Part shown: positions 8,826-64,000 of the stretch, piece by piece | How the letters are laid out: every line of letters starts with the position of its first letter | Numbering within the stretch: the stretch's first letter is position 1 | DNA from: Naegleria gruberi | Taxonomy: Eukaryota | Length of the DNA: 64,000 nucleotides | Reading direction: 5' to 3' (one strand) | Assembly (NCBI GenBank): GCA_000004985.1 | Contig: GG738927.1 | Notes under the pieces: generated by a model | The model's input: the letters and a program-made list of their open reading frames with translations, nothing else | What the model was told of the DNA's origin: nothing | The model's database searches: none | Program-made: the position numbers and the translations under genes

Positions 8826-11764
8826 CTACTGGATACTACAACTCTTGTGTGACTTCTTCCCTGGCTTACTTGGCGATTTTCTACTGAGCAGTTGCTTAAT
8901 GTGAGGAATAGAGTCCCATTCATTCAATTTTCCTTCATACATTTTAGAAAGTGGTTTCAAATTCATTTCTGCAAACTGAGTGAGTAAATTGAATATTTCA
9001 TGAACTGGTGGTATCATTTCTGGTTCGTAGATTGGAGAGGAGGAAGGTATTCTTTGTTGTTGGAAAAGAGTTTCGTCACCAAACATTAACATCCACTTGC
9101 AAATATCTAAAAAGTTTTCAACAGAGAGTAAGGTGGCGAGCTTTCTGATTAGATATATTTGAATAACACTGTCCATTTGGAATAAACTGGCATGATAAAT
9201 CATTCCAATTAGAATGGTTATTTCACTATTCAAAAGGACGAAAGAATCATCCACCGAGTCTTGTTGTTTGGATATTCCATAGCATGCGTGCATGAGATGG
9301 AGTAGTGCCTTTTCCTTAATCTTGGCCTCTGATGCTTCGATTGCATTTCTAGAATCGAGGTCAAAATCATATAAATCCAAGCAATTATCATCTTTGGAGA
9401 ATTGGAACTGTTCATCAAATATCTTTTCAAAAAGAGGGCTATAAGATGAGAGGATTGTCTTGTGCAAGTACAATACGTGCTTCTTTTCTGAATCGATAAT
9501 TACCTTGACATCTGAAGTAGCTTGATCGTTGAACATGTTGTGGAAAATATGTCTATGGTTCGATTGTTCATGAATTGGATGATTAATGTAGTGAGCGAAG
9601 GGTTTTTTCAAGCGAACTACACGAGAGACCTTTTCCAATGGTGTATCTTGAATATTTGCATTGAAATCTTGGAAATTATCCAAGAGCATTCTTATCTCAT
9701 CGGCTACTTGATCTGTAAGTTCCACATTACCATCTATTTCTTCAACCAAATAGTACATTACAAATCTTCTAAAATTCTCTATAATTAAATCAGTTTCGAT
9801 ATGATTCATGACATAGAGAGCATGAACCTTCTCGATAGGGGTCATGCTTACTAAGTGGTCCACTATCTTCTCCTTCTTGTGCACAAAATGACCTTGAACA
9901 CAATCCACTAAATATTGAGCAAAATTTAGTGCGATAGTAGTCATGGAATTGAGATACTCTTCATTAATCACCACATTCTCATAAAATTTTGGTGTTACCT
10001 TTCTCAATAGTGGACCATATCCATAAATCTTGTCATGGATTCTATCTCTATTGTAATGTCTAATAGGGAAGTGAAGTATTGGCAGAGAATCAATTATGGC
10101 CTTTCTGTGTGCAAAGTAAAAATGTGATGAGAATGCAGATGTCTCAACTCTGTTGATGGTATCAGTGTTAATTGAGGAAACCTTCCTGAAAACAGATGAA
10201 TATTGTGTTATATCCCCTGTACCAAGTCTATTTAACTTGTGAAGAGCAGCTCTATTTAAAAACTTACCTTCCATCAGTATTAATACCACAACTGTAAGCA
10301 TTCTGATCAGTTAGGAAAACAGACAACGAAGCTCCACATGAAACATGTTTTGGAATGAGATTAGTTTTCAGCATTGCAAATTGTGGCTTTTTCACTCTAT
10401 CTGAAAGACCCAACTCACCATTGATATTTCCACCACTGCAAATCATGTATCCACCAGTATTAGTAATAGCCATCGAATGAACAAATCCACATGAAATTTT
10501 TGTAATCTTAAATCCTGGTCTTACCATGTTAATTTTGACAAACTTTTTTACACTCTTCACATTACCCAGTCCAATTTGTCCCGATTCATTAGATCCAGAT
10601 ACGTAAATCTGACCATCCTGACTCAGTAGAACTGAATGGTCCTTACCAAAACTAATATCTTGAGCCAAAAACCCAGCTTGAACCAATGTGAAATAGGCAA
10701 CGTTGGGCTTGGATGACTTTCTACCAATGCCCAACTCTCCACAATTATTCTTTCCAGCAACATATAGAGCTCCATTATTTGTAATGAATGCAGAATGATG
10801 CTCTCCACAACATAGTCTCTTGATGGGTATATTCAACTCGTACGATTCAATAATTTCTTCCTTTCCATCTTCTAATGAGTGTTCCACGACATTATCTTCA
10901 TTACTGCTTCCACTCCCACTGGATGAACATTCTTCCTCTTCATTGTTTGAGGTATTTACAGTATATTTTGGTATATTTACTTTTTCGAAATCCTCCCGTT
11001 TCACTAAATCTCCCTAAAATGATGAGTCAATAAATCAATTTCACTAACTTACCAATCCAAGTTGACCATTGGTATTTAAACCTAAATTTAATCAATTAAT
11101 ATAACAAGTCCAATTGGATGTTTCCAATAATAATTATCAGTTTCCATATTTAGATATTTTATGACTTACCACTGCTGTACAACTCTCCTTCATTCGTTAA
11201 CAACATCAAATGAAACCATCCACTCGATATTGCCTTCACCTTCTTATCAAAATGTAATTTATGCATTTGTGACAATCCAGATTGATTTGTTTTCATTGCT
11301 CCCTTGAACGAATTATATCCACTCACATAAACTTCTCCAAATTCTGTTAATATTGCCAAATGATATGCACCTGCTTCCACTTGTTTAATCATAATCGGAG
11401 CAAAAGAAGGATTTTCAATTGTATGATGAGATGAATTCTTGCTAATTGGTGTTACAGTTGGAACTGGCTTTTCCGAATAATCATCCAATTGACCCAATAT
11501 TCCATACTTGTTTTTGCCACAAGAATAGATAAGATTGAGAGGTGCATTAGGAGAGGCAATATGTAATAGAGGAAGTGAAACACTATTTCTATTATTGTTT
11601 GATGATGATTTTGAAGTATTCGGAGAAGAATTATTATTCAATGTTTCCTCTTCATCATGTTGATGATTAGCAAGCGACGATGATGCTGATGAAGAAGGAC
11701 TCTCAGGTGAAGTTGCCTCCACCATTGAATCATCTTCCGTAGTTGAAAGTCTACTCTCTTCCAT
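8826..11764 (-). CDS. RCC1-repeat + BTB domain protein (RCBTB-like). Structure is join(8826..10227,10268..11013,11053..11081,11170..11764), including a 29-nt micro-exon.
   Basis: RCC1 blade motifs occur repeatedly (YSCGKNKYGILGQ, LYVAGKNNCGELGIG, IYVSGSNESGQIGLG, CSGGNINGELGLS). GTAAGT donors and AG acceptors restore the frame at each junction. The micro-exon encodes (G)LNTNGQLGL, itself an RCC1 motif. The C-terminal exon contains a BTB/POZ domain (VKVIIDSEKKHVLYLHKTILSSYSPLFEKIF...). Confidence 0.7.
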
Positions 11765-25202: not shown

Positions 25203-28200
25203 TCTCGTGTCTAATGTATTTCAAAAGAAGACCACTATTCTCTTCAGATTCGGTTGCCAGGGTTGCGAATGAATCAGCCAATACAATCAAACAACTCATA
25301 ATGAGTGGAGCACCATCACTGGTAAAGACTTTAAGACAACTGATTACGAGTGGATAAAATTCTGAAGCCAGTGTTTTGGAAACGATCATAATCTTACCAA
25401 TTGCAGCTACAGCATGACTTTTCAATGATTTTGGTGCCTTTCTTGATTGCATACAGTTCCTTAGTAGATTGACATATCTAGAAAGAAATCCCTTGGTTAA
25501 GCTTTCAGTAACAGCCCTTTCTAAAACAAGTCCTTTGGCTTGTTCTCTTTGATTTTCCTTCATGCAGTTTTCCTCCTCACCTTCAAAATCATCCTCCTCT
25601 GATATCAGCTTGTCACTATTCTCGTTGAATTTCCTAGTAGCAATAGACCTAATTTCCAAACTATCCCTATAACAAATCTCTCCAACTAAATCAAAGAATG
25701 CACTCATCTTTTCGAGATCAGTTTCTTGTTTTTCAGTAAAATCCTTCCAAACTGAGCTCTCCACTTTTCCAATTCCATAGTAGGCCAATCTTCTATTACT
25801 CTCTGTAGAGTATACCAAGGAAAGGGTCTCACGACCAAATTCTAGTAGTAGGAACGCAATGTTTTCTTCCAAAAAGTTGTCCACAGACTTTTTGAAGGGT
25901 TGATTATTGCTTATTCTATATACCTCCTCTATAATTCTTATTTTCAATGAGATTAGCTTTCGATTACCTTCAATGTTGGAAATCAAATCTTTAAGGTTTT
26001 GAAGAATGTTTTCAAAAGGAATGAATACCAAAAAACTAGAGTCTAACTTGAGCAACAACAACATGGTGAATATTGCTGTTGTTAAATCTAGCTTCTCCCT
26101 ACAATACTCAACCAGAGATCTCAAACTCAAGTTAGGGAAGTAAGTCTTGATTCCACTGAATAAAATCAGCCATGGATCGATTAATTCAGTATTTCTTTTA
26201 CAGGTTACATTGATGAAAAAGCACTATAACTTACGTGATTGATTGCAACAATAAACCGAACTTGAACTTGGATTGAGGATCTACAAAATAGGAAACAAAC
26301 AGATTGCATATTCTCTGCTTAACAGATGAGTGTGTATCCTTTCCAATACAGGATACAAGTTCTGACCAGTCAATCTTCAAACCTTGAATGGTCAGTTTGT
26401 CAAACAAGTTGAACACTGATAGTATGGATTCTTTGCAAAATAGAGGGCCTTCAAGTGATAAAGCTCTCAAAGTGTTGAGCAATTTGGGAATGAATTTGTA
26501 GTAGACTTTTTCGAGAAATTCTACGTGCATTCTCTTACAAGAAATGTCATCATCCAAGTCATTTGATTCATGTTGGAACAGAATACACTCACTTTTTGTG
26601 GATGAAAATCTCACTTTAACATGCGAACTTTGTTGTAATCTTCTACTAAGGCTTTCGAATGTTTCATCAATGAATGGTACCATATTCTTTGGTTGTTGTT
26701 CCAAAAATAACATGGTGTTATCATATAAGGATTGACCTAATTTCTCAATCACATTATTCTTGTATAATTGATATAAATCCAACAATTCGACGCTTTTTTC
26801 AAAGTTGTCTCTACACAATAATAAATCAAAAGCTCTGGTGTAGGGATTTCTTTGTATTAGACCAAATGAAGCATTAATACTCTGTACTCTTGTTGTCTTT
26901 GACTTGTCAGAGATGTGGTCAAGGCAATTATTCTAATTACCTTAATAATCATATTTGAAATGTAACTTACCAAGAATTTGTTAAACTCAACAGCATAATT
27001 ATTCCAATCAACCTGACCCGAAATATCTGCAATTTTCTGGAATGCTCTTGTTCTAACAAAGGCGTCCTTATCGTTTGTTCTTTGAAGTACAATATTCAAG
27101 AAATCCTTATTGAGTATGTTTGCCTCTATCAAGTTGGAAATTACTTCCAAAAAGTATTTTCTAATTGAACCATTTGAGGAATTGGAAATGAAATCCAGAT
27201 CAGAAATGTACATTACGAATACTTTTGGAATTTTCTTTGAAAGGATTGACAACAGCTCTACAGCCTTTGATACATCTTTGCTCTTCTTATTGGTCAACTC
27301 TACCATATTCTGTACAAGTTGAATGAAATAATCCAAAAAGACGAAGGAGAATTCTTCGTTATGATTATGTATATCAACAAGTATTGAGCACATATTTTGT
27401 GGCTCAATTATTCCTTCTATGCACAACTTGGAAATAAATGCGCAAAATCTCAGGTGATATTTTCTTAAATCCTCTTCATCATTGATAATCTTGAACGGTA
27501 ATAGAAGCAACACTTGGAACGCACTCCACAAGCTTGTACTAGACTTTTTTCCTCCATTTGAAAATGCCAATAGGAGCTTTGGTAGGGAATAGTGCACCAA
27601 TTCAATCAAGATTTCCATTCTCATTTGCTTTCTTTTTGCATTCTCATAAAGAAGTGAAGTATAAGAATCAATAGAACCGAGTATCTTTTCCAAGCTACCT
27701 CCCTTCAATTTTCTGTTTTGTGACAGCTTGAAGAGTGAAGCAACTAGAATTAAGAAATGTCTATTGAATATTCTCATCAATAAAGCTCCATCAGGGTTAC
27801 GTGATGATGCCTCACCCTCATTCAATGAAATAGCCTCACTAATTGAATGACATCCATATTCTACAACCCTCACTATTTGACATAAAGTGTCACTACTCAA
27901 TGAATCAAAGGCTAAAACAATACTGTTGAAAATTCTACTATCCAACATCGGGAAAGCTATCATTAAAATTACATGATCACAATACATGAATAATTATTCG
28001 AAACATACCATCAACAATACTATGAAATTGATTTTTAATTTTCATCGGAAAATCATTCAAAAGACTTAACAAGCCTTCACTTGAAATTGGATTCTCTACA
28101 ATCAAACTATCCACAGACTTGAATAAGGATGAATAATCACCCACTCTTTCATTTTCACTCTCCTTGAACAATCCTTTTGAATTCGAAACAAGGCTTTCAA

Positions 28201-34960: not shown

Positions 34961-37900
34961 TTATTTCTTCTTCTTGGTAGAGTAACTTGTTTCTTTTGGT
35001 GTTGGTAGCTTTTTCTTTGGTTTCTCTTCCTCAGATTCCGAACTTTCTATCTTCTTTTTAGTTTCATATTTCATATCATCATCGGATTCTTCAGAGTCAT
35101 ACTTCTTTGCTTTCTTTGAAACAGGTGATTTGAGTGGTTTCTCTATCTTCTTTGGTGATGGACACCCATCAGAAGAGTCGTCATCTGAACTTTCTTTCTT
35201 CTTTTCACTCTTTTTAGTTTTCCATGTTTCTGTTTCTTCCTCTTCGTCATCCAATACTTCATGAATGTTTGTGAGCTCGTCTTTGGATCTCTTGACATAA
35301 ATGTGAGATTCACGAGTTCTCAATACTAATTTTCTAGACCGATACCAAGATTTGTTCATTTTTGATTCTAAGCTCATTGTTTGAAAGTTAATTGTGTTGC
35401 CATTAGAGAGTTCGTATAGAGAATTTGTAGCCTTTTTTGAGCTTGACTTTTGAGCTTTGAATAACCTGTATGCTTGTTCCACTAGTTTTGCTTCTTCTTC
35501 ACCAAGTACATTTCTACCAGAGCCTATCCCAAGTATCCATTGATACTTGGTAAACTTTTTCTTTCCTACTGACTTGTTCTCTATTTTTTCATCAACATAG
35601 GCATCTCTAAAAAAGTTTCTATTATGTGGATGGAATGAGCCAACAACATATTGACGGGTTGGCTCATATGTTATAAATTCCAAATGTGGAGGGAGGTCAC
35701 TCTTTGGTTCCTTTGGTTGAATAATTCCATTAATATCGTTAAGTGAATACTCAAAGAATAGTTTCATCTTTTTCTCCTCAACTACGTATGTTGTTCTTGC
35801 CTTAATGTGATTAAAAAGCTGACTAGCAGATATAAATTCAGAATTCCAACTGTACCTAGGAAGACGAATTTGTGTATAGTCATGATATTTTGACTTGGAA
35901 ACCGTCTTTTCGGCAGATTCAACATCATTTCCTGCTCCAATTGATTTCAGTCCTCCTCTAAAATTGGCATGCTTATAGGCATGTCTGATGAGGAGAATTT
36001 TGGCAAGACCTGTGACATTATGAAGTTTGGCTCTTGGTTGAGGCTGTCTAAAGTATCTTCTATTATGTTTGTAGAAATGATCCCCTATCAAAATATCATT
36101 TTGAACTCTTTTTTCTTCATAGCCAGCTACTCCAACTCTAAAGCCACGGAGAGCATACTTGGTTAACCTTAATTCGTCTTATGAAATTATTAGAATTTAA
36201 TTTTAAAGTACTCACAAGTTGTAGATTGTCTATCAACGTCTACAATATTGCATCTTGTCTTTATGGCTTGAATGGCTCTTGGTAATGCGTAAACTTGAGA
36301 GCCATCAAAACCAACACAACAACAATTCACATCGAATCCAATTAAGACTTCAGCCTTTTGTTGACCAAGAGATTTGTAAATTTTAAAAATTACGTAAACT
36401 TACTGGAGATTTGTAAATTCTCAAAATTACTTGCACTGTCCTTACTGAGCTGATAAACTTGAATGTAATAGCATTTTCAGTTCTGATCAACAAAATATCA
36501 TCATAATTTGTGCCTTCTTCGGTGGACTTTGGAGAGGAGTATTTTTTGGATTTTTTAGTGAGCTTGTTGAACTTGTTGCTATCATTTGCATTTTCTGGTT
36601 TTGCAAAATGTGGAATGTTTTTGATATTCTTTTTGAATAATTCAAAAAGGTAAAAAATCTTCTTTTCGGCTTCCTTTTCATCCAAACCATAAATGAATAA
36701 ATCTATATCACTGTTTTTCCAATAGGATTTTCTAAAATAGTTGAAAAGTTCTTCATCCAAATCATCTTGTTCGTATTTTTTGAATGAGCTTGCTTTTTTG
36801 GCTCGAACAGGTTTATCGTCCTCAGAACTTGTTGCTGAAAAATATCCATCTGCAACAGACCCATTATCATTATCAGAATTAGAACCATCATCCTCATCCC
36901 AGAGCACTTTTTTCTTTGCTTGTTGCATTACTCCACCTTGGAAAGGATCAACCTTTTGAAATCTACTGTAACGGTTTTCTTGTAGCAAGTCTTTTCTATC
37001 CAATTTAGCTTTGAGCATGCATGCCAAAATTCCACCACCTAATTTTTAAATATTATTGAAAATTGAATAATTAAAAATATTAAAGAAAGACATACCTGCT
37101 GCGAATACATTACTCCAATCCATATCTTTAAATAGACCACAAGTTAGAGCGTTAAATTGAGTGAAGAATTCTTCTCTATCAGAAACAATTTCTGGGATTG
37201 GTGGCAATTTGAGTCTTGAATATTCATTGATAAGTTCAGAACATTCAACAGGGTTTTCAAAATCAAAAAGCAAAGGTAGGGTACTTGGAGGATCGCATGG
37301 TTTGAGTAATTCTCTGGTAGAATGTTCATTACCAAAAACACTAACCAAATGAATGTAAGGATCTGAAAGAATCTGATTTTCTCTATCTGAAACATATAAA
37401 TTTCTCAAAAAGTCTTCCTCTTTTTTGATTTTTAAATTATTAGATCCAATATCTTCGATTGGATAACGAAGAGGATCTAAAAAGTCTAAAAGTCCTTGGA
37501 GTTTGAATTCTTTGGCCTCTTTGTAAACCAGTTTTCTCTGAGACATTTCTCTTGGGACTGAAGTGAAGGTTGCACTCTCCAAATATTCGTACAATACAGA
37601 AAAGACTTCACTATCTCTGTCAAGGAATATTTCACGGTTGGTACTTGCTTGAATCAATTGAGGGAAAATACTTTCTGGATGGACAAGTAACTTTTCAATA
37701 CCAATGCAAAATTTCACACCTCTTACATTGAAAACAATTGGTTCCTTTTTCAAAAAGGCCTCTCTTTTTCTGAGTTCTTCTCTTTCCTGTTCAAGATCAA
37801 CCTCAGCCTTTTTCAAAAAGTCTTCCATGACAGTCTTTTCCTTGAGTGTAAGCTTTGAAAACATATCCAACCATTTTTCATCACTTTCGTTTTGATTAGA

Positions 37901-39426: not shown

Positions 39427-40066
39427 TCTTGTTGTGTGGATTAATATTTATCAAGCGAGTGCTTTGAGTATTTTTTTTGTAAATTATTGATCAGATTTTG
39501 ATCTCATTTTAGCGCCAAAAATAGATCCGTAGACGTGTTACCTTTCCACAGCCTTGAAAAAAATTGTCGAACACGTTATTCCTCGGAGATGGACGTGTTG
39601 TTGGCACAAAACGTGTGGATAGGAGGTTAATGAAGCAGAGAAGGAATGAGTTAGGAACACGTATTGATGGTTCCTTATTTTTACAATGTTTTCAAAGTTT
39701 AAATGATGATATTTAAGAGGAACAACACGATAATTTTGATTATACATTTTAGAATGTGTTATAATTTTGTTAAATATTTACGAGATACCAAGTTTCATTT
39801 TACAAATTTTGGAGAGAACGAGAGCTGGTCGATCGAGTGGTGGTTCTAATTGAGGAGCATTGGCAGAATCTTTGAGAGATTCAGCTGTTTCCTTATTTGA
39901 GCTTTCGGCCATGAATTCTTCGAATAATTTCAAGGCATTTTCATAATGTTCTGAAAAGTATTCGAGGCAAGCATCTTGATACTTTTTCCATTTCAATAAT
40001 TGATTCTTTTGTTGCAATTCATACATCCATTCTAAAGTTTGGAAAGTCAATATTAATTAACAAAAA

Positions 40067-42514
40067 TCAGGAAAAAAACTTACCATCTTCCGAGACCTTA
40101 TTACTCGATCCCAATTCATAAATAGCCTCCTGACCAGCAATATCATTGGTAATTACGCTATCTTCAATACTATGAATATCAATTAAGGAATCAGTTTTTA
40201 CAAAAATGGAATTTTGATAAAATTGATCAGCAGCTAACATTTTCATATCGACAAATCTGGTCTGATATGTCTTACTTGCAGTTTCGAATATCCTCTCTGG
40301 AATGACTACTTGTAAATCTAAACGATGCGCAGTTTCCAATAACTTTTCCAAGTTGACTTTAGCAGAACTAATTATTGAGAAATTCTTGCTTTCTGAAGTG
40401 CCCAAATTTCCACAATATACTCTTTGGGTAGTAATTGCAAATCTGAACTGCAAATTTTCTGCCAATTGATGTGAAACCTTTTCACTCTTCTTACTGGAAT
40501 GAGATGAAAAACTGTTCGAAACCAAATTCTTTCTCACAGCTAGCAATTTCTCCTGTAAAACCTTAACAGTTGAAAGCGCCTTTTCCACATGATTCTGACT
40601 ATCTTTTGTTGTATTAAACGAAAGAATAATAATATCATTCTCAAATGCTCCAATATTAAATCCACTGCTTCGACTCTGAACATTAATTTGCTCATAAACA
40701 AGAGATAGCAAGTTGACCACCGATTTACAATCCTCTGTCTTGTACCACTGATCCAGACCGTCTAGTAAAATCCCCAGAAACGTAACTTGTTTACCTTCCA
40801 AATAGAGAGAAAACATGGAATTTTGACCTTTCTTTGAAGAGTTGGATTTTTGGGATTTGATCATATCAATCGAGCTGAACAAACCTGATTTGAAATTGCC
40901 ACTTGTTAAAATTCTGGACCTGTTTATACTTTGATGGAGAGCAGAAGAAGCTGCCTGCTGTTGTTTCCCTGTTTCATCTGATTGTCCATCTAATTCTGCT
41001 AACAAATAACTTGGAATGAAAGCTCGATACATTTTGAGTTTTTTTAACATTGCTGCAAATTGAGTTTGAACATAATTGAGCTCTGAAAAGTAACTTTTCG
41101 ATTCTTGATCTTGTAGAGCAGCATCTATATCCATGTTGGCCACTCTCTCAAACATTGTCATTAAAGTCTTGAATGGTTTTACAATACGGAATGAAAAGGC
41201 AACTCCAACCAAAACACTAACTCCGATAATTACTATACTTCCACCCAAAGCAGCCAATAGAGCAATGATAATTGGAGAAATGTAATTCCATTGTGGAGTG
41301 GACATGGCAATGACCCAATCCAAATTATATTTTGAACAAAATCTATATACGGTAATGTATTCATTAAGGGTAGAAATTTGGTAAAGAGTGTCACATTTCA
41401 ATTCTTTCAAATTTGGATAGTTTCTGTACATTTCCTTAGCCAACTTGTTATGCTCCTCAGACAAAACAGTCAACCCAGTCCTTCTAATCACATCCACCTT
41501 ATTTTCTGCCAAATAAGCCAAAGAAATCGTTCGATTATTGACAGCTATCAAATAATCAGTTTTCGTTTCTATAATAAATGCTGTCGATCTTGCAATACTC
41601 GAAACGAGATCTTCCAAGAATTTGGAGATACGTTTTAACTCCATGCTAAATGCCAAATATTTGGAAATTTCAGTTGTGGAATTTGATTTAAGCCAAGATG
41701 TCATCATGGTGACAAATGTTAAATCGGCACCGACATTATAGGAAGGAGTAAATAATGAATTGTCAGGATTTGACTTGGCAGTGGCATATAATCCAGATAA
41801 TTCAAAACTTGGCATGATCATATTAGGAGTTACTGATCTTTTGCAATAGTCGACTGTCAAACCTGCCAAACAATAATATACTTTCTGATAGGACGTGCCA
41901 ATGTCAACAAATGCTGGAATAGTTCCCCAATTAATTATTGAAATAGAACCTGTCTGATTACCAATCAAAATGGCAGAGGGCAATGCATCATGTGTTTCAA
42001 ACTCTGATTTGTAAAATTTGAACATTGACAACTCCAACTTGTCAGGATGATCCAAATCATCTTCGTGAATTTGACTTTTGGCAGTATTGACAACTAGCAC
42101 AATTTCCTGAACTGTTTTTTCGATATAGGAACGAACAGATTCGAATTCATTCTTTCGAATAGTTGATGAGAGAGATGTGATTGCTGGACCGAAACTTGAC
42201 AGCCAAGTTGCTGAGATAATTAAAGCTGACAGGACAACTAGGATTGTAATCATGGAAATGATAAAGAATTTGACAGATCTGAAACAGCTGACAGTTTTTT
42301 CATTCTTGACATTCTCAGCTAGGGAACCATCAGAATCTGCATTCGAAACTTCTTCGACATTTTGCTTTAATCCAGAAAATGATTTTTGGTTGACAGCTGT
42401 CACGACTGAATAACGTAGAGCATATGTATTCTTGGAATTGGTTGAAAGGTTGAGTGGATTCTCTATGGATTGTCGAATACTGGCAGGAACGACTTTACTA
42501 CTCGAATAAACCAT
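40067..42514 (-). CDS. Receptor-like membrane protein: TM, a ~300-aa extracellular sensor region, TM, a HAMP-like linker, and a C-terminal class III nucleotidyl cyclase-homology domain that is possibly degenerate.
   Basis: Two hydrophobic segments flank a large loop. After TM2 comes a HAMP-like amphipathic segment (FRIVKPFKTLMTMFERVANMDIDAALQDQESKSYFSELNYVQTQFAAMLKKL). The C-terminal region shows the cyclase-homology-domain layout (VTFLGILLDGLDQW... ...FRFAITTQRVYCGNLGTSESKNFSIISSAKVNLEKLLE, compared with RIGIHTGPVVAGVVG.....Y.LFGDTVNTASRMES). Confidence 0.55.
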   Translation of the reverse strand: MVYSSSKVVPASIRQSIENPLNLSTNSKNTYALRYSVVTAVNQKSFSGLKQNVEEVSNADSDGSLAENVKNEKTVSCFRSVKFFIISMITILVVLSALIISATWLSSFGPAITSLSSTIRKNEFESVRSYIEKTVQEIVLVVNTAKSQIHEDDLDHPDKLELSMFKFYKSEFETHDALPSAILIGNQTGSISIINWGTIPAFVDIGTSYQKVYYCLAGLTVDYCKRSVTPNMIMPSFELSGLYATAKSNPDNSLFTPSYNVGADLTFVTMMTSWLKSNSTTEISKYLAFSMELKRISKFLEDLVSSIARSTAFIIETKTDYLIAVNNRTISLAYLAENKVDVIRRTGLTVLSEEHNKLAKEMYRNYPNLKELKCDTLYQISTLNEYITVYRFCSKYNLDWVIAMSTPQWNYISPIIIALLAALGGSIVIIGVSVLVGVAFSFRIVKPFKTLMTMFERVANMDIDAALQDQESKSYFSELNYVQTQFAAMLKKLKMYRAFIPSYLLAELDGQSDETGKQQQAASSALHQSINRSRILTSGNFKSGLFSSIDMIKSQKSNSSKKGQNSMFSLYLEGKQVTFLGILLDGLDQWYKTEDCKSVVNLLSLVYEQINVQSRSSGFNIGAFENDIIILSFNTTKDSQNHVEKALSTVKVLQEKLLAVRKNLVSNSFSSHSSKKSEKVSHQLAENLQFRFAITTQRVYCGNLGTSESKNFSIISSAKVNLEKLLETAHRLDLQVVIPERIFETASKTYQTRFVDMKMLAADQFYQNSIFVKTDSLIDIHSIEDSVITNDIAGQEAIYELGSSNKVSEDGKFFS

Positions 42515-59109: not shown

Positions 59110-59951
59110 GGTTGCTAATGGTGAGGGATGTTGATGAATTATTTTCGGTATTATCAATACTAATCATTTTGTTTGTTTGTTTTTTTTGAATAAATTTCAT
59201 CCCATTGAATTGGGCAATCTTTTAAGCTGTTGTTATTAAACAACTTGAGATGGGAATAATTTATTGGCGTGTTGTTGGTTGTTTGTATGTTAGGTGTTAA
59301 GCACAAAATCAGGACATGATAAAGTGGAGGTCCTTAGTAGTACCAATAGTGCGCACGCATTCTTTTTGGCCTTTTCATTTTTTCATCATTTGATGAAATT
59401 GAATAAATATTAATATTTATTGATGATGACCGTTGTTATATTGAACATGGAATATCAGTAAAAGTATTGAATAAAGCGGGTGCAACCTTCTGCGTAATCA
59501 CGTTTTTCTACTAGGAAATTGTGTTTCTGCCATTTTGCTTGTATCTCCCTCATTTGTTGATGATACCGGAAAGAAAATATAGCACTATATAGAGCCTGTG
59601 ATGGTTGTTTAAAGGTGGAATTATGCCAGATGGTGAGATGAAATTATTAAATATATATAAAGTTGGCTCAATCTTCAGCTAATTATCAAAAGATTGTTGT
59701 TTGATTTCTTGTGATGTTTCAAAATAAAGAACTTTAAAACACAAAAAAGTTGTTTGCCAAATTTCTTAAAATCATGTGTGAAGCCAATCTCCAGACGTGG
59801 CATATTGTAAGATTTGATGAAATATTACCTTCAAATATCAAGAAAGAACACTATGTTTTCGTTTTCATTTGTAAAAAACAAAATAATGGAACTTGAGTAG
59901 GAGTTGAATTTTGTAAACTTCCGTTTTCGAATTGTAAACGTTTTAAAAAAA

Positions 59952-61139
59952 ATGCCAATAACATTCCAAGTGACTCAAGTCCATCCTGAAACTGTGAAGG
60001 TAGATGGTGATGCATTTGATCCGAAACAAGTCCTTCCATCTCTTCCGGAAGATAGAAAGTCGACGAAACCGATCACTGATTATTATGACATCAAGCCAAT
60101 TCAGTCAAGCTTTGGAAATTCACCTGTATTTAATATTGGAAGTAATTCGTTTGTGATGAGTGGTGTACAAGCCTATTCGAAACATCATCATTGGGTAATC
60201 AAACCAGATGACGTTTGGATTGCAATTTGCTCTCAATTTTCGAATTATGTAAACGAAAGATCAGAAAAGTTGAGAAGTAAATTCGTTGATTTTGATGGAA
60301 AGAAGGAATTAGTCGTGAAAGGTATTGGAACTTTATATACTGCCAATTATGAAGATCTTTCTATTCGAATGACAAGTGAAATTGCCAAAAATATTAAGGA
60401 TCCAAGTGTAAGAGAATGGGTCATGCCAGATTTCACAACAACTACTCAATCAGATCGAATGGTTGGTGCAGTTGTCTTGATGGCAGCTATGAAAAAGTAT
60501 TTTGATTACAAATTTGAATTGGAATGCAATTTACCAAGTGTTACTTTATTAGGACAAGTTGAAGATTGGATTAAAATTAGAGAAAGAGCTAATCGATTGC
60601 TTGAATTTGATACTGAGGAAGAATGTATGAAGAAATGGTCTCAATATTTATTCCCAGTTTTGGATAAATTTGTGGAATCCATTAAGGGAAATCCAGATAA
60701 GGAATGGTGGAATAGAGTAGCTAACTTTTTAGGAGGAGGTTCAGGACCTTCTTTTATCAGTGGTTGGATTACAACTTTTTGTGTATTTTCAGAAACTGGC
60801 AAATGGTTGGGTGATCAAAAAACAGAAGGTGAGGTTTGGTATGAGGATGAGGATGACAACGAACCAAAGGAAAAAGTAAGAGAAAGGGAATGGCCTGTCA
60901 TTGATGATGAAGAAATACCAAGAGGATATGTCAGTGTTCCAATTACTGTGGATGATAATGGAACAGTTTACAAAACTGAAATGTTTGCAGGACATATTGT
61001 TGCCTCAGTATTGAACCAAAATTCAATTCAACCACGAGTTGACTGGGCACTTTTCTTAAAGAAGGAAGATTATGATAAGGAATATCAATGTGCAAATGAT
61101 GAGGATGATGAGGATAACATGGACGAAAGCATGGACTAG
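59952..61139 (+). CDS. DUF4419-like protein with an acidic C-terminus. The first ATG is at 59952; the ORF-track start at 59904 is non-ATG.
   Basis: The conserved core [24 protein letters not shown] resembles the H.....PDD.W motif of DUF4419 proteins. A-rich Kozak-like context. Confidence 0.4.
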
Positions 61140-61433
61140 TAAATTATTACAAAAAGTTAACACTGACTGTAAACCTGCATTGTAATCAATTAAATACACA
61201 TCTGGAATTTTGTATTTAAAAAGAATTTAAAAACAATGTAATGAAACAAACAAAATTCTATATTTTTTTAGAGGGCTTCTTGGAATTTTATGATTTTCCA
61301 AATATATCCAAGTAGTAAGGCATAATTGCTTTAAAATGTATAGAGCACTGACAGTCAAACATCATTAGATGATTACTAAACTATTATGTAATGCGGAGGA
61401 CAATGATAGAAACAATATTTAAAAAAAAAAAAG

Positions 61434-63544
61434 ATGTTTAACATTCATTGTGTAACGATCATGATAGTGGTGATGATATCACTGATTTGTGTTGTTGCTT
61501 CTGTTGTATCTGCACAACAGAGAATCGATGTCAAGTATTCGATTCAAACTATTGTTGGTACTGGACAAACAAGTTTTAACAGGGATGGATTGACTGGATT
61601 GGCCACCACAATTAATAGCCCTATTGGTTTGTTTTATGAGGAAAGAAGTGGAGACTTGTACTTTGCAGATACTAGTAAGTTTAGTCCATGTTGTTTAGTT
61701 TACATGTCGTTCGAATCCTAAGTGAATCATAGAGTACGAGTATTGAGAAATAATTCAGGATTAATAGAAGCAGTAGCTGGAAACGGAACAGCTGGATACA
61801 CTGGAGAAGGAATTCTTGCTGTCAACTCGACACTTAACAGACCTTACGGTTTGTTTATTTCGAATAACAATGATATTTACATTGCTGGAAACTATGCCAA
61901 TCGAATTCATCTAGTTTCTTCCAAGGACAACAAGCTGTACACATTCGCTGGCACAGGTGTTTCTGGATTCAATGGTGATGGCTTACTTGCCAATCAATCA
62001 AGATTTACACAACCACTAGATATTAAACTGATCAACCAAGATAATCCAAACAACATGCAAATGATCATTGCTGATACATATGGCAGTAGAATTAGAGTGG
62101 TGAACATTTCAACGATGATCACAAAAACACTTTCAACTCTTAGGTAAGTTTCTAACAAAGTTTCGTATGAACATGTTGTTTAGTTATCCTTTTGGAATAG
62201 AATCAGATAGTGATTCTAATGAATTACTCATTGGATGTGCATCACCAAACAGTTATGTTATCCGTTATAATCTCAACACAAATATCATCACAACCGTGAC
62301 AGGTGTCAATGGAAATTCTTCTCACACAGGTGATGGTGGACTAGCTCAATTCGCCACTTTTAACAATGTGAATGGTGTTGCTATTTCCAAACTAAACGGA
62401 GCCATTTATATTGCTGAACCGAATGGTAATACTATTCGAAAGATTTCTAAAAATGGAATAATTACAGCAATTGCTGGAAGTGGGTCATCAGGTTACAATG
62501 GAGATAATCAACAAGATGCCACCAAATCTAATTTAAATGCACCAAGAGTAATTGTTACTACCAAATCTGGAGAAATCTTTTTCACAGATACTAGTAATAA
62601 TAGAATAAGAAAGTTGACAGCTGTTTGTCCAACTGGATATGTTATGGATGCGTTTAAAACTGTGTGTTTGGCAACATGTTATGGAATTGTTTATAATAAT
62701 TCAAATGTTTGTGGTTCGAATGGAAAATGTCAGGCAGTTGACAGTTGTGTTTGTGATAGTGGATATTATGGACTAGATTGTTCGATTCCTGTTTGTTTGA
62801 AGTCTACAAATGGAGAATGTGTAAATGTCACTAGTACACCAGTTATTATTGAAAACATTGAAACAAGTCAATTGTCAAACAAATCAATTTCAATTGGTAG
62901 CTCAGAAAATAACTCTACATCCAATTCGTCCATCTCAATTTCATTCCCTTCAGATTTTTCCAATTATGTTTCTAATCAAACAACTTCCTCATTAATTTCA
63001 CTCTTAACAGCTGTCTCCAAGGGAGGAGAAAATGTGACAACTTCAAACACAACCACTTCTTCAATTGTTTCAGATATTATCACAATTTCACTTGCCTTAA
63101 CAAACGGAGAAAAGATTCAAGTTTCTAAATTAGATAATCCAATTCAAATATTATTCCAAAAGCCATCAACATTTTATGGAAATTTGACATGCATGTATTT
63201 TGATGAATTGGTTAATGAATGGAAATTAGATGGAGTGGAAACTAAGATTGAAGAATGGACTGTAACTTGTCTGACTTCTCATTTGACATCATTTTCAGTA
63301 ATTGACATTAATCTCAAGAAGGAAATTGTTAAGCCAAACAACCCTAAGAATATCTATTAAGATTATTACCGATAGCAACGGAACTACCATAACAACTAGA
63401 ACTGAATCTAATCAACTCTCTGAAGAAGCTATTATCGCCATTTCAGTTTCAATTGCTGGAGCTGCAATTGTGTGTTGTGTTGTTGCAGTTATTGTAATGG
63501 TTGTAATTTGTATGATTAGAAGAAAAGGATCAAACAATAAGTAA
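61434..63544 (+). CDS. Type I membrane protein with NHL repeats (beta-propeller), EGF-like Cys-rich modules, a GPS/GAIN-like motif and a single TM. Structure is join(61434..61674,61723..62143,62184..63297 or 63327,63362..63544).
   Basis: A signal-like N-terminus. NHL motifs: LYFADTxNHRVRVL, IYIAGNYANRIHLV, IADTYGSRIRVVN, IYIAEPNGNTIRKI, IFFTDTSNNRIRKL. The 48-nt and 40-nt GTAAGT introns restore the frame. EGF-like: CGSNGKCQAVDSCVCDSGYYGLDCSIPVC. GPS-like: CMYFDE...W......W.VTCLTSHLTSFSVI. The final short intron (34 or 64 nt) joins onto a TM helix (AIIAISVSIAGAAIVCCVVAVIVMVVICMI) and an RRKGSNNK stop-transfer. Confidence 0.6.
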
Positions 63545-63558
63545 ATTCATATTTCTAA

Positions 63559-64000
63559 TTATTTGTTTTGTTTCACTAAACTATCGAAATCAATTGTCTT
63601 CTTCAATTTCTTTGAAGCGTTTTCAACTATTCTATTATTCTTATTCATTCGTTTGAGGAATTCAGTATTGTATCTCAATGAATAATGTGCAAAACGAAGT
63701 GATTCAATATTGATATCCATTGCTTGAGCAATAAAATCTTCATCACTAATAATTTCGTAAGAGGCTACCTCAAGAGCTGTAACATCGTGCTGTATAGCTC
63801 TCAGAACAATATCTCTATCATTTCTCATTTCAAACAATGCATAACAGAGGGCAGAATAACTTGTTTCATGACTAACCGCGTGCATTACAATTTCCTTATC
63901 GTTTAGGAATTCAGGTACTGCAAATTGAAGTGTGTCTTGATGGTTTTGGGCACATTTTAGAACAACATTTCTGTTATGTATAAACTTAAGAGGTACATAT
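63559..64000 (-). CDS. DUF4116-repeat protein, 3' end only; the gene continues beyond the window edge.
   Basis: It carries the same repeat signature as 6019..7497 (RNDRDIVLRAIQHDVTALEVASYEIISDEDFIAQAMDIN...LRFAHYSLRYNTEF). The reading frame is still open upstream past 63906 in the adjacent minus-strand frames. Confidence 0.5.
   Translation of the reverse strand, partial: YVPLKFIHNRNVVLKCAQNHQDTLQFAVPEFLNDKEIVMHAVSHETSYSALCYALFEMRNDRDIVLRAIQHDVTALEVASYEIISDEDFIAQAMDINIESLRFAHYSLRYNTEFLKRMNKNNRIVENASKKLKKTIDFDSLVKQNK

What the first reader, a model, noticed from the sequence alone, without database searches (positions are those of the whole stretch)
61434..63544. NHL-propeller + EGF + GPS-motif single-pass membrane protein assembled from four exons
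The combination of NHL repeats, tenascin/teneurin-like EGF modules and a GPS autoproteolysis-type motif (C...W...VTCLTSHLTSFSVI) just before a single TM resembles animal adhesion-receptor logic (teneurin-like, polycystin/adhesion-GPCR GAIN). Here it occurs in a compact gene with 40-64-nt introns. Whether the GPS motif is cleavage-competent (HL|T) is testable.
Basis: partly seen in the sequence, partly recalled or inferred. Interest (0 to 1): 0.5.

Follow-up and report, generated by a model that had tools for sequence, protein, structure and literature searches.

The report
Naegleria NHL–EGF–GAIN surface protein, frameshifted
This is one member of an uncharacterised family of amoeba (Naegleria) surface proteins that carry the same self-cleaving "GAIN/GPS" module as animal adhesion receptors; the supposed last intron is really a one-base insertion that breaks the reading frame just before the membrane anchor.

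The parts
61434..61674 (+). Exon 1. Holds the start codon, the signal peptide (61434-61514, MFNIHCVTIMIVVMISLICVVASVVSA) and the start of NHL blade 1.
   Evidence: The translation was read. The N. gruberi orthologue P0121 has the same N-terminus (…VKYSIKTLIGTG…INSPIGVFYEESSGDL).
61675..61722 (+). Intron 1, 48 nt, GTAAGT…AG.
   Evidence: It has a consensus donor, like the other introns of the window. Splicing restores the NHL motif FADT-MNHRVRVL.
61723..62143 (+). Exon 2. Holds NHL blades 1-3.
62144..62183 (+). Intron 2, 40 nt, GTAAGT…AG.
   Evidence: It has a consensus donor. A 2-nt indel relative to the 98.9%-identical contig L001 falls inside it, which is tolerated only if the stretch is non-coding.
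62184..63544 (+). Exon 3 is a single exon. It encodes NHL blades 4-6, the EGF module, GAIN-B, the linker, the TM segment and the tail. In this window an extra T at 63345 interrupts it.
   Evidence: The ORF is continuous in L001/P0001, in L002/P0122 and in N. gruberi P0121.
61536..62625 (+). Six-blade NHL beta-propeller (residues ~35-368, spanning both introns).
   Evidence: Pfam TEN_NHL 3.3e-12 and NHL 6.9e-9. PDB hits are a bacterial teneurin-like protein 9ifo at 1.8e-42, SOQ1 and NHLRC2. I read six [a]D/E..N.RIR-type blade motifs in the sequence.
62626..62820 (+). Cys-rich segment with 10 Cys. One tenascin/teneurin-type EGF core lies at 62677-62781, flanked by two extra Cys pairs.
   Evidence: Pfam EGF_Teneurin scores 27.3 bits against a cut-off of 24.3. 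EGF_2 scores 19.1 bits, below its cut-off.
62839..63321 (+). GAIN subdomain B (residues ~440-600): about 13 beta-strands and 2 short helices. No helical subdomain A precedes it.
63190..63315 (+). GPS motif CMYFDELVNEWKLDGVETKIEEWTVTCLTSHLTSFSVIDINL. The predicted scissile bond is L588|T589, between nt 63285 and 63286.
   Evidence: Pfam GPS scores 23.6 bits on the isolated region and 20.9 bits on the whole protein. C131, C157, H161 and F165 are invariant, and W141 and L162 are at least 90% conserved, in 47 relatives.
63345..63345 (+). Extra T that is unique to the window (AACCC-T-AAGAAT). It shifts the frame and brings TAA at 63358-63360 into frame.
   Evidence: The T is absent from L001 and L002. 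Removing it gives a 673-aa protein collinear with P0001.
63428..63517 (+). Transmembrane segment AIIAISVSIAGAAIVCCVVAVIVMVVICMI. It is in frame only if T63345 is removed. The tail RRKGSNNK (63518-63541) and the stop (63542-63544) follow.
   Evidence: Kyte-Doolittle maximum of 3.37. The segment is conserved in P0001, P0121 and P0122.

Best explanation
The locus is a three-exon, two-intron Naegleria gene for a type-I surface glycoprotein.

Domain order:
- signal peptide
- six-blade NHL beta-propeller, the probable ligand- or prey-binding head
- one EGF module
- a heavily N-glycosylated GAIN subdomain-B domain with an intact C-x-T-x-H-L|T-S-F site
- a ~35-residue Ser/Thr-rich linker
- one TM helix
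- an 8-residue basic tail

Inferred mechanism, by homology with GAIN domains:
- The domain probably cuts its own chain between L588 and T589 while folding.
- That would leave a ~560-residue N-terminal fragment held non-covalently on an 85-residue membrane stub through the last beta-strand, TSFSVIDI.
- The adhesive head would then be a force-releasable, sheddable unit.
- There is no intracellular signalling domain, so any signalling would need partners. Paralogues fuse the same module to kinases.

In this particular sequence, one extra T at 63345 shifts the frame 19 codons after the cleavage site. As assembled, the product is 612 aa and lacks the anchor. That is either an assembly or sequencing error, or a genuine anchor-less (secreted) allele.

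Shown here: the domain identities, the GAIN-B fold homology, the conservation of the catalytic motif, the absence of the third intron, and the indel.

Inferred: autoproteolysis, the adhesive role, shedding, and which of the two explanations for the indel applies.
For: Domains: Pfam; PDB phmmer.

GAIN-B homology:
- The 47-sequence profile hits only aGPCR GAIN domains, 22 of 22. ADGRG6 scores 3.4e-15, ADGRG3 1.1e-13, BAI3 8e-6 and CL1 1.3e-5, covering profile positions ~18-175.
- The AF2 model has pLDDT 86.
- C1, C3, H and F are invariant, and W and L are at least 90% conserved.
- The two missing cysteines are exactly the C2-C4 partners of one canonical disulfide (PMC3321182). They covary across 132 GPS motifs: both absent in 94, both present in 32, mixed in 6.

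No third intron:
- L001 (98.9% identical over 4 kb) and L002 (~88%) both lack T63345 and have continuous ORFs.
- N. gruberi P0121 and P0122 read HLTSFSVIDINL[KR]KEI.KP… straight into the TM segment.
- Six of six substitutions in 63298-63344 are third-position changes in frame 1, and the downstream indels are 3 and 6 nt.
- Nine other candidate introns in the window use GTAAGT or GTATGT, whereas the proposed donors are GTAATT and GTTAAG.
- The motif HLTSF[AS]VID.N[FY]KK is conserved across Naegleria paralogues.

Family: paralogues with NHL + EGF + GPS + TM occur in N. fowleri, N. lovaniensis and N. gruberi.
Against: - Autoproteolysis is not demonstrated. The domain lacks subdomain A entirely and has one rather than two disulfides near the scissile bond.
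  - In latrophilin-1 the whole GAIN domain was needed for cleavage (PMC3321182).
  - The solved GAIN domains named as self-cleaving with a short subdomain A (G1, G3, E5) keep 2-3 helices (PMC13197933).
  - Some GAIN domains with an intact motif are not cleaved: BAI3 and BAI2 were crystallised uncleaved (titles).
- Pfam GPS is only borderline on the single sequence.
- A 1-nt indel is also what one would expect inside an intron, so taken alone the indel does not exclude an intron.
- I could not obtain N. gruberi genomic DNA, reads, or RNA-seq for this organism.
- No ligand or function is known for any family member.
Confidence: 0.8

Rival explanations
1. One reading: a fourth exon is joined by a 64-nt (63298-63361) or 34-nt (63328-63361) intron that restores the frame to the TM segment.
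For: Both candidate introns have GT…AG ends and a length of 3n+1, and each gives an in-frame TM-containing protein. The other non-triplet indels relative to L001 fall in non-coding DNA, so an indel here would fit an intron.
Against: - The donors GTAATT and GTTAAG do not match the GTAAGT/GTATGT seen in 9 of 9 other candidate introns, and 34 nt is shorter than any of them.
- The 63298 donor would delete VIDINLKKEI. That is part of the last GAIN strand and of a motif conserved in all Naegleria paralogues.
- Residues encoded on both sides of 63345 (KEIVKPNNP and ISIK/VSIK) are conserved in P0122 and P0001.
- Substitutions in 63298-63344 are 6 of 6 at third codon positions.
- Three relatives have open, in-frame sequence across the whole interval.
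Confidence: 0.05
2. The extra T at 63345 is real, not an assembly error. This strain carries a frameshift allele that encodes a 612-aa secreted protein with a complete GAIN-B domain but no anchor, or a young pseudogene.
For: - The insertion is not a homopolymer-length change (CCC-T-AAG). That makes it less typical of long-read or 454 errors (inference from the sequence).
- The other differences from L001 look like genuine polymorphisms: 33 substitutions, one 9-nt in-frame indel, one intronic 2-nt indel and one poly-A indel.
- The truncated product would still contain the whole GAIN-B domain, including its last strand.
Against: - The TM-encoding part downstream is 100% identical to L001 and still open.
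- Both other alleles and the orthologue are intact.
- The rest of the gene shows purifying selection against L001, with about 3 non-synonymous changes among 14 in exon 3.
- A single uncorrected indel in an assembly is common.
Confidence: 0.35
3. The GAIN-B domain here is a non-cleaving structural stalk. The protein is a constitutively intact adhesin and the conserved HLT is kept for folding rather than catalysis.
For: - Subdomain A is missing and one disulfide is lost.
- Whole-domain and domain-extrinsic factors are needed for cleavage in animal receptors (PMC3321182; Chung et al. 2025, cited in PMC13197933).
- Uncleaved GAIN domains such as BAI3 and BAI2 exist.
Against: - H161 is invariant, L162 is at least 90% conserved, and T or S follows in the sequences listed, across very divergent protist and animal sequences. 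Such conservation is hard to explain without catalysis.
- The strand after the site is modelled with pLDDT ~95, packed in the sandwich as in cleaved GAIN domains.
Confidence: 0.3

Closest known systems
Naegleria NHL/EGF/GAIN-B single-pass proteins, e.g. N. gruberi 'predicted protein' P0121 (orthologue, 67-70% identity), N. lovaniensis XP_044547599 (UniProt A0AA88KJU5, 'GAIN-B domain-containing protein'), N. fowleri XP_044559224 and N. gruberi XP_002678052
   Same: The architecture is the same: NHL blades, teneurin-type EGF modules, a GAIN-B domain with C-x-T-x-HLTSF[AS]VID.N[FY]KK, a Ser/Pro/Thr linker, a TM segment and a short basic tail.
   Different: The numbers of NHL blades and EGF modules differ. 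This copy carries a frameshifting T at 63345. The N. gruberi gene model P0121 omits the propeller, which may be mis-annotation.
GAIN domain of adhesion GPCRs (ADGRG6, ADGRG3/GPR97, ADGRG1/GPR56, ADGRE5/CD97, ADGRB3/BAI3, ADGRL1/3)
   Different: There is no subdomain A at all, whereas the animal examples named in the review keep at least 2-3 helices. The C2-C4 disulfide is lost. The first Trp is replaced by Tyr/Phe. A ~35-residue linker and a single TM helix follow, rather than a 7TM body, so there is no receptor for a tethered agonist. The Stachel residues +6/+7 are I-D rather than L-M.
Polycystin-1 / sea-urchin REJ proteins (non-GPCR GAIN proteins)
   Same: A GAIN/GPS domain sits outside a GPCR context and autoproteolysis has been documented (PMC13197933).
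   Different: Those proteins have 11 (or 1-2) TM segments with PLAT, REJ and PKD domains. None of these is present here.
Teneurins and bacterial teneurin-like proteins (e.g. PDB 9ifo)
   Same: They give the best Pfam and PDB matches for the NHL propeller and the EGF module.
   Different: Teneurins are type-II proteins with the order EGF→…→NHL→YD shell→toxin-like C-terminus. Here the order is NHL→EGF in a type-I protein, with no YD or Rhs shell and no GAIN in teneurins. Only module types are shared.
SEA-domain mucins (e.g. MUC1) and ZU5/UPA/FIIND autoproteolytic modules
   Different: The SEA fold is different. ZU5 and FIIND are cytoplasmic and lack the GPS cysteines and the HLT motif.

Membership tests
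GAIN domain / GPS motif (Pfam PF01825; PROSITE GAIN-B) | Significant match to the GPS sequence profile | tested here: met
   PF01825 scores 23.6 bits (E 7.7e-5) on the isolated C-terminal region against a cut-off of 22.5. On the whole protein it scores 20.9 bits, just below. The family profile A2 against the PDB gives only GAIN domains, best 3.4e-15.
GAIN domain / GPS motif (Pfam PF01825; PROSITE GAIN-B) | Subdomain B fold: a twisted beta-sandwich of about 11-14 strands whose last strand follows the cleavage site | tested here: met
GAIN domain / GPS motif (Pfam PF01825; PROSITE GAIN-B) | Helical subdomain A (2-6 helices) N-terminal to subdomain B | tested here: not met
   Only about 6 residues separate the last Cys of the EGF region from the first strand. 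The model has no helical bundle. It is therefore a GAIN-B-only domain.
GAIN domain / GPS motif (Pfam PF01825; PROSITE GAIN-B) | Cleavage triad H-L|T/S/C | tested here: met
   SHLTSF lies at residues 586-591. H is invariant and L is at least 90% conserved in 47 relatives.
GAIN domain / GPS motif (Pfam PF01825; PROSITE GAIN-B) | Two disulfides flanking the site (CxCxHL|T; C1-C3 and C2-C4) | tested here: not met
   Only C1 (C557) and C3 (C583) are present. C2 is replaced by V and C4 by T. The loss is coordinated across the family: 94 motifs lack both and 32 have both.
GAIN domain / GPS motif (Pfam PF01825; PROSITE GAIN-B) | Actual cis-autoproteolysis | not testable with these tools
   This needs expression and fragment analysis.
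Adhesion GPCR | 7TM class-B-like domain immediately after the GAIN domain | tested here: not met
   There is a single hydrophobic segment and an 8-residue tail, and no 7TM Pfam hit.
Polycystin-1 / PKD-REJ | REJ, PLAT and PKD-channel TM domains | tested here: not met
   No such Pfam hits appear at E ≤ 10.
Teneurin | Type-II topology with EGF repeats preceding the NHL domain, a YD-repeat shell and a Tox-GHH-like C-terminus | tested here: not met
   The protein has an N-terminal signal peptide, the order NHL→EGF, and no YD, Rhs or Tox hits.
NHL-repeat beta-propeller | Six NHL blades with a significant profile match | tested here: met
   TEN_NHL scores 46.5 bits and NHL 35.7 bits, both above their cut-offs. 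PDB NHL proteins match down to 1.8e-42. I read six blade motifs in the sequence.

The most novel reading that the evidence does not exclude
The Naegleria family would represent a natural minimal GAIN module: subdomain B only, one disulfide, about 160 residues. It would still self-cleave at HL|T and act as a force-releasable tether for adhesive heads, and in paralogues for receptor kinases, in a discoban amoeba. That would show that the autoproteolytic adhesion-tether logic, including its pairing with NHL/EGF modules, predates animals and needs neither subdomain A nor a 7TM partner.
Probability: 0.35. Interest if true: 0.5.

Novelty: new member of a known kind. Interest (0 to 1): 0.3.

Why it matters
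GAIN domains outside animals have been noted before (Dictyostelium and Tetrahymena; PMC3321182). UniProt already auto-labels a Naegleria paralogue as GAIN-B, so the existence of the module here is not new.

What is modestly useful:
- It documents a Naegleria-wide family of single-pass NHL/EGF/GAIN-B proteins that I could not find discussed in the searchable literature.
- The domain is a stripped-down GAIN (no subdomain A, one disulfide). That makes it a convenient natural test of the minimal requirements for GAIN autoproteolysis.
- Paralogues with the same module occur in N. fowleri, a human pathogen, where surface adhesins are of practical interest.

For annotation, the practical message is that the apparent last intron is a frameshift. 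It should be checked against reads rather than modelled as splicing.

Tried and rejected
- A structure prediction with only three sequences gave pLDDT 53.5 and was not used.
- Word-indexed homologue searches with the C-terminal region and with the 47-sequence profile returned only 1 and 5 proteins. The exhaustive HMMER search was needed to find the family.
- N. gruberi genomic DNA for P0121 and for its scaffold-mate P0127 could not be fetched. The orthologue evidence is therefore at protein-model level only.
- Two metagenome scans for further alleles around 63345 found nothing.
- The afdb50 fold library was unavailable.
- Literature searches for Naegleria with 'GAIN domain', 'NHL repeat' or 'GPCR proteolysis site' returned no papers.
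- A scan of all six frames found no second NHL or GPS gene in the window.
- Programmed frameshifting and RNA editing were considered and rejected as unsupported. Two related contigs simply lack the base.

Full report
**Observation**

The window is AT-rich (about 34% GC) and clearly eukaryotic. Reading 61434-63544 on the + strand gives four stop-free stretches.

Two short introns have consensus GTAAGT…AG ends: 61675-61722 (48 nt) and 62144-62183 (40 nt). They join the first three stretches and restore NHL blade motifs across the junctions, FADT|MNHRVRVL and TLSTL|S|YPFGIESD.

Pfam finds the following on the spliced product:
- TEN_NHL at 3.3e-12 and NHL at 6.9e-9.
- EGF_Teneurin at 27.3 bits against a cut-off of 24.3.
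- GPS (PF01825) at 20.9 bits on the whole protein and 23.6 bits on the isolated C-terminal region, against a cut-off of 22.5.

PDB sequence search gives NHL proteins down to 1.8e-42. It also gives a weak ADGRG3 GAIN hit (E 0.016) over residues 529-594. There is only one full EGF, flanked by extra Cys pairs.

**Organism and orthologues**

The best named relatives are Naegleria proteins. Three are informative for the gene model:
- An ENA metagenome contig, L001, is 98.9% identical to the window over 59943-64000.
- A second contig, L002, is about 88% identical over the C-terminal part.
- The N. gruberi protein P0121 is 67-70% identical to the C-terminal half and shares the N-terminal signal peptide and first blade.

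**The 'last intron' is a frameshift**

Five lines of evidence argue against this.

1. L001 differs from the window in this interval by one thing only. It lacks the T at 63345 (AACCC-T-AAGAAT), and its ORF then runs uninterrupted from exon 3 through the linker and TM segment to the stop (P0001).
2. L002 also lacks that T and is also continuous (P0122: …HLTSFSVIDINLKKEIVKPNNPKIEVSIKVTDSNG…).
3. N. gruberi P0121 reads …HLTSFSVIDINLRKEIGKPKESPSVS…QLSQEAIIAISVS…. Residues on both sides of the indel, inside the supposed intron, are conserved.
4. Between the window and L002, all six substitutions in 63298-63344 fall on third codon positions of frame 1. The nearby length differences are 3 and 6 nt. 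This is the signature of coding sequence.
5. Nine other candidate introns in the window (38-67 nt) all begin GTAAGT or GTATGT. The proposed donors are GTAATT and GTTAAG, and the 34-nt version would be shorter than any of them.

In addition, the 63298 donor would delete VIDINLKKEI. That segment belongs to a motif, HLTSF[AS]VID.N[FY]KK, conserved in every Naegleria paralogue, and it forms the last strand of the predicted domain.

The gene therefore has three exons. As assembled, it ends at TAA 63358-63360 after 612 codons. Removing T63345 gives a 673-aa protein collinear with its relatives.

Whether the T is an assembly error or a real allele cannot be decided here:
- It is not a homopolymer-length change, and the other differences from L001 look like real polymorphisms.
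- Against that, the downstream TM-coding sequence is still perfectly intact.

I put the real-allele option at about 0.35.

**What the C-terminal domain is**

An exhaustive HMMER search with the three orthologous C-terminal regions found 143 proteins at E ≤ 1e-3.

The top hits are Naegleria fowleri, N. lovaniensis and N. gruberi proteins of 700-1400 aa. They carry NHL blades, one to nine teneurin-type EGF modules, this domain, a TM segment and a short basic tail. UniProt already names one of them 'GAIN-B domain-containing protein'.

More distant hits include proteins in which the same module and a TM segment precede a protein kinase: a Protostelium nocturnum protein (P0149), an unnamed metagenome protein (P0152) and an N. 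fowleri protein of about 2200 aa. A Barthelona protein and a fish protein with tandem GPS-like repeats also appear.

A 47-sequence alignment has C131, C157, H161 and F165 invariant, and W141 and L162 at least 90% conserved. Its profile hits 22 PDB sequences, all adhesion-GPCR GAIN domains. ADGRG6 scores 3.4e-15, ADGRG3 1.1e-13, ADGRG1 1.3e-13, ADGRL3 7.9e-12, BAI3 8e-6 and latrophilin-1 1.3e-5. The matches span profile positions ~18-175, well beyond the 40-residue GPS motif.

With that alignment AlphaFold gives a confident model: pLDDT 86, pTM 0.81, about 13 strands and two short helices. Structural comparison gives:
- Foldseek against the PDB: the first nine matches are GAIN domains.

GAIN subdomain B is complete, including the strand after the cleavage site (TSFSVIDI, pLDDT about 95).

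**Differences from canonical GAIN**

- There is no room for, and no prediction of, the helical subdomain A. The first strand starts about 6 residues after the last EGF-region cysteine. The review names animal GAIN domains with a short subdomain A of 2-3 helices (G1, G3, E5) that still self-cleave (PMC13197933). In latrophilin-1 the whole domain was required (PMC3321182).
- Only one of the two disulfides that pin the cleavage loop remains. In latrophilin-1 the pairs are C801-C832 and C820-C834 (PMC3321182). Here the equivalents of C801 and C832 are present, and those of C820 and C834 are V and T. Across 132 GPS motifs in the 143 hits, these two positions are both Cys in 32, both non-Cys in 94 and mixed in only 6. 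That supports the alignment and defines a widespread 'two-cysteine' GPS variant.
- The first conserved Trp is Tyr/Phe.
- The strand after the site ends in I-D rather than L-M.
- A linker of about 35 residues, not about 15, separates the domain from the membrane.

**How it probably works**

Shown: a secreted-pathway protein with an NHL propeller head, an EGF spacer, 17 N-glycosylation sequons, a GAIN-B domain with an intact H-L|T site and, in the intact allele, a single TM segment with the tail RRKGSNNK.

Inferred from GAIN biology (PMC3321182, PMC13197933): cis-autoproteolysis between L588 and T589 during folding. It would give a ~560-residue N-terminal fragment held on an 85-residue stub by the last beta-strand. 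The adhesive head could then be pulled off or shed under force.

With no 7TM body and essentially no cytoplasmic domain, tethered-agonist signalling as in adhesion GPCRs or polycystin-1 cannot be assumed. The closest functional analogy is a SEA-type mucin tether. Kinase-bearing paralogues suggest that the module is also used in front of signalling domains.

I put autoproteolysis at roughly 0.5-0.6, given the invariant catalytic residues set against the missing subdomain A and disulfide.

**Family membership and novelty**

- It is a GAIN-B/GPS domain protein. The sequence profile, fold and catalytic triad criteria are met. Subdomain A and the second disulfide are not met.
- It is not an adhesion GPCR, a polycystin or a teneurin.
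- GAIN domains in non-animal eukaryotes have been known since 2012, and databases already tag a Naegleria paralogue. This is a new member of a known kind.
- I found no paper discussing GAIN, GPS or NHL proteins in Naegleria.
- The most interesting open point is whether this natural minimal GAIN self-cleaves.

Noticed in passing
window 61462-61470: There is a 9-nt in-frame indel (TGATAGTGG, three extra residues in the hydrophobic core of the signal peptide) relative to the 98.9%-identical contig L001. A 1-nt length difference also lies in the A-run just upstream of the start codon (61421).
   Followed up: partly
window 59904-61139 (+): The upstream neighbour is a single-exon DUF4419 protein (Pfam 1e-111). 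It is intact in both the window and L001.
   Followed up: partly
window 63559-64000 (-), continued in L001 3872-6856: The downstream neighbour on the opposite strand is a ~994-aa protein made of about 20 DUF4116 repeats (Pfam 2e-187). Its function is unknown.
   Followed up: partly
P0121 (N. gruberi orthologue, 330 aa): The public N. gruberi gene model jumps from the first NHL blade (…SGDLNFSHTLNN) straight into the EGF module (TCVCKDGFYGLDCS). It omits the whole propeller. This is either mis-annotation (a ~1 kb false intron) or real domain loss. The genomic DNA could not be fetched.
   Followed up: partly
P0149 (Protostelium nocturnum), P0152, P0164/P0273 (N. fowleri, ~2200 aa): Relatives carry the same GAIN-B/GPS module and a TM segment in front of a Ser/Thr/Tyr-type protein kinase domain. 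This looks like a 'GAIN receptor kinase' architecture in amoebae.
   Followed up: partly
132 GPS motifs in the 143 hits: The two cysteines of the second canonical GPS disulfide (C2, C4) are gained or lost together: 32 motifs have both, 94 have neither and 6 are mixed. This defines a widespread two-cysteine GPS variant. It also occurs in a fish protein (Tachysurus vachellii XP_060742127) with six tandem GPS-like repeats.
   Followed up: partly
window-wide (e.g. 40032-40083, 37039-37095, 26933-26970, 10228-10267, minus strand): Candidate introns throughout the window are very short (38-67 nt) and have nearly invariant GTAAGT or GTATGT donors. This is useful as a local splice-site standard. They were identified only by ORF-joining logic.
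   Followed up: partly
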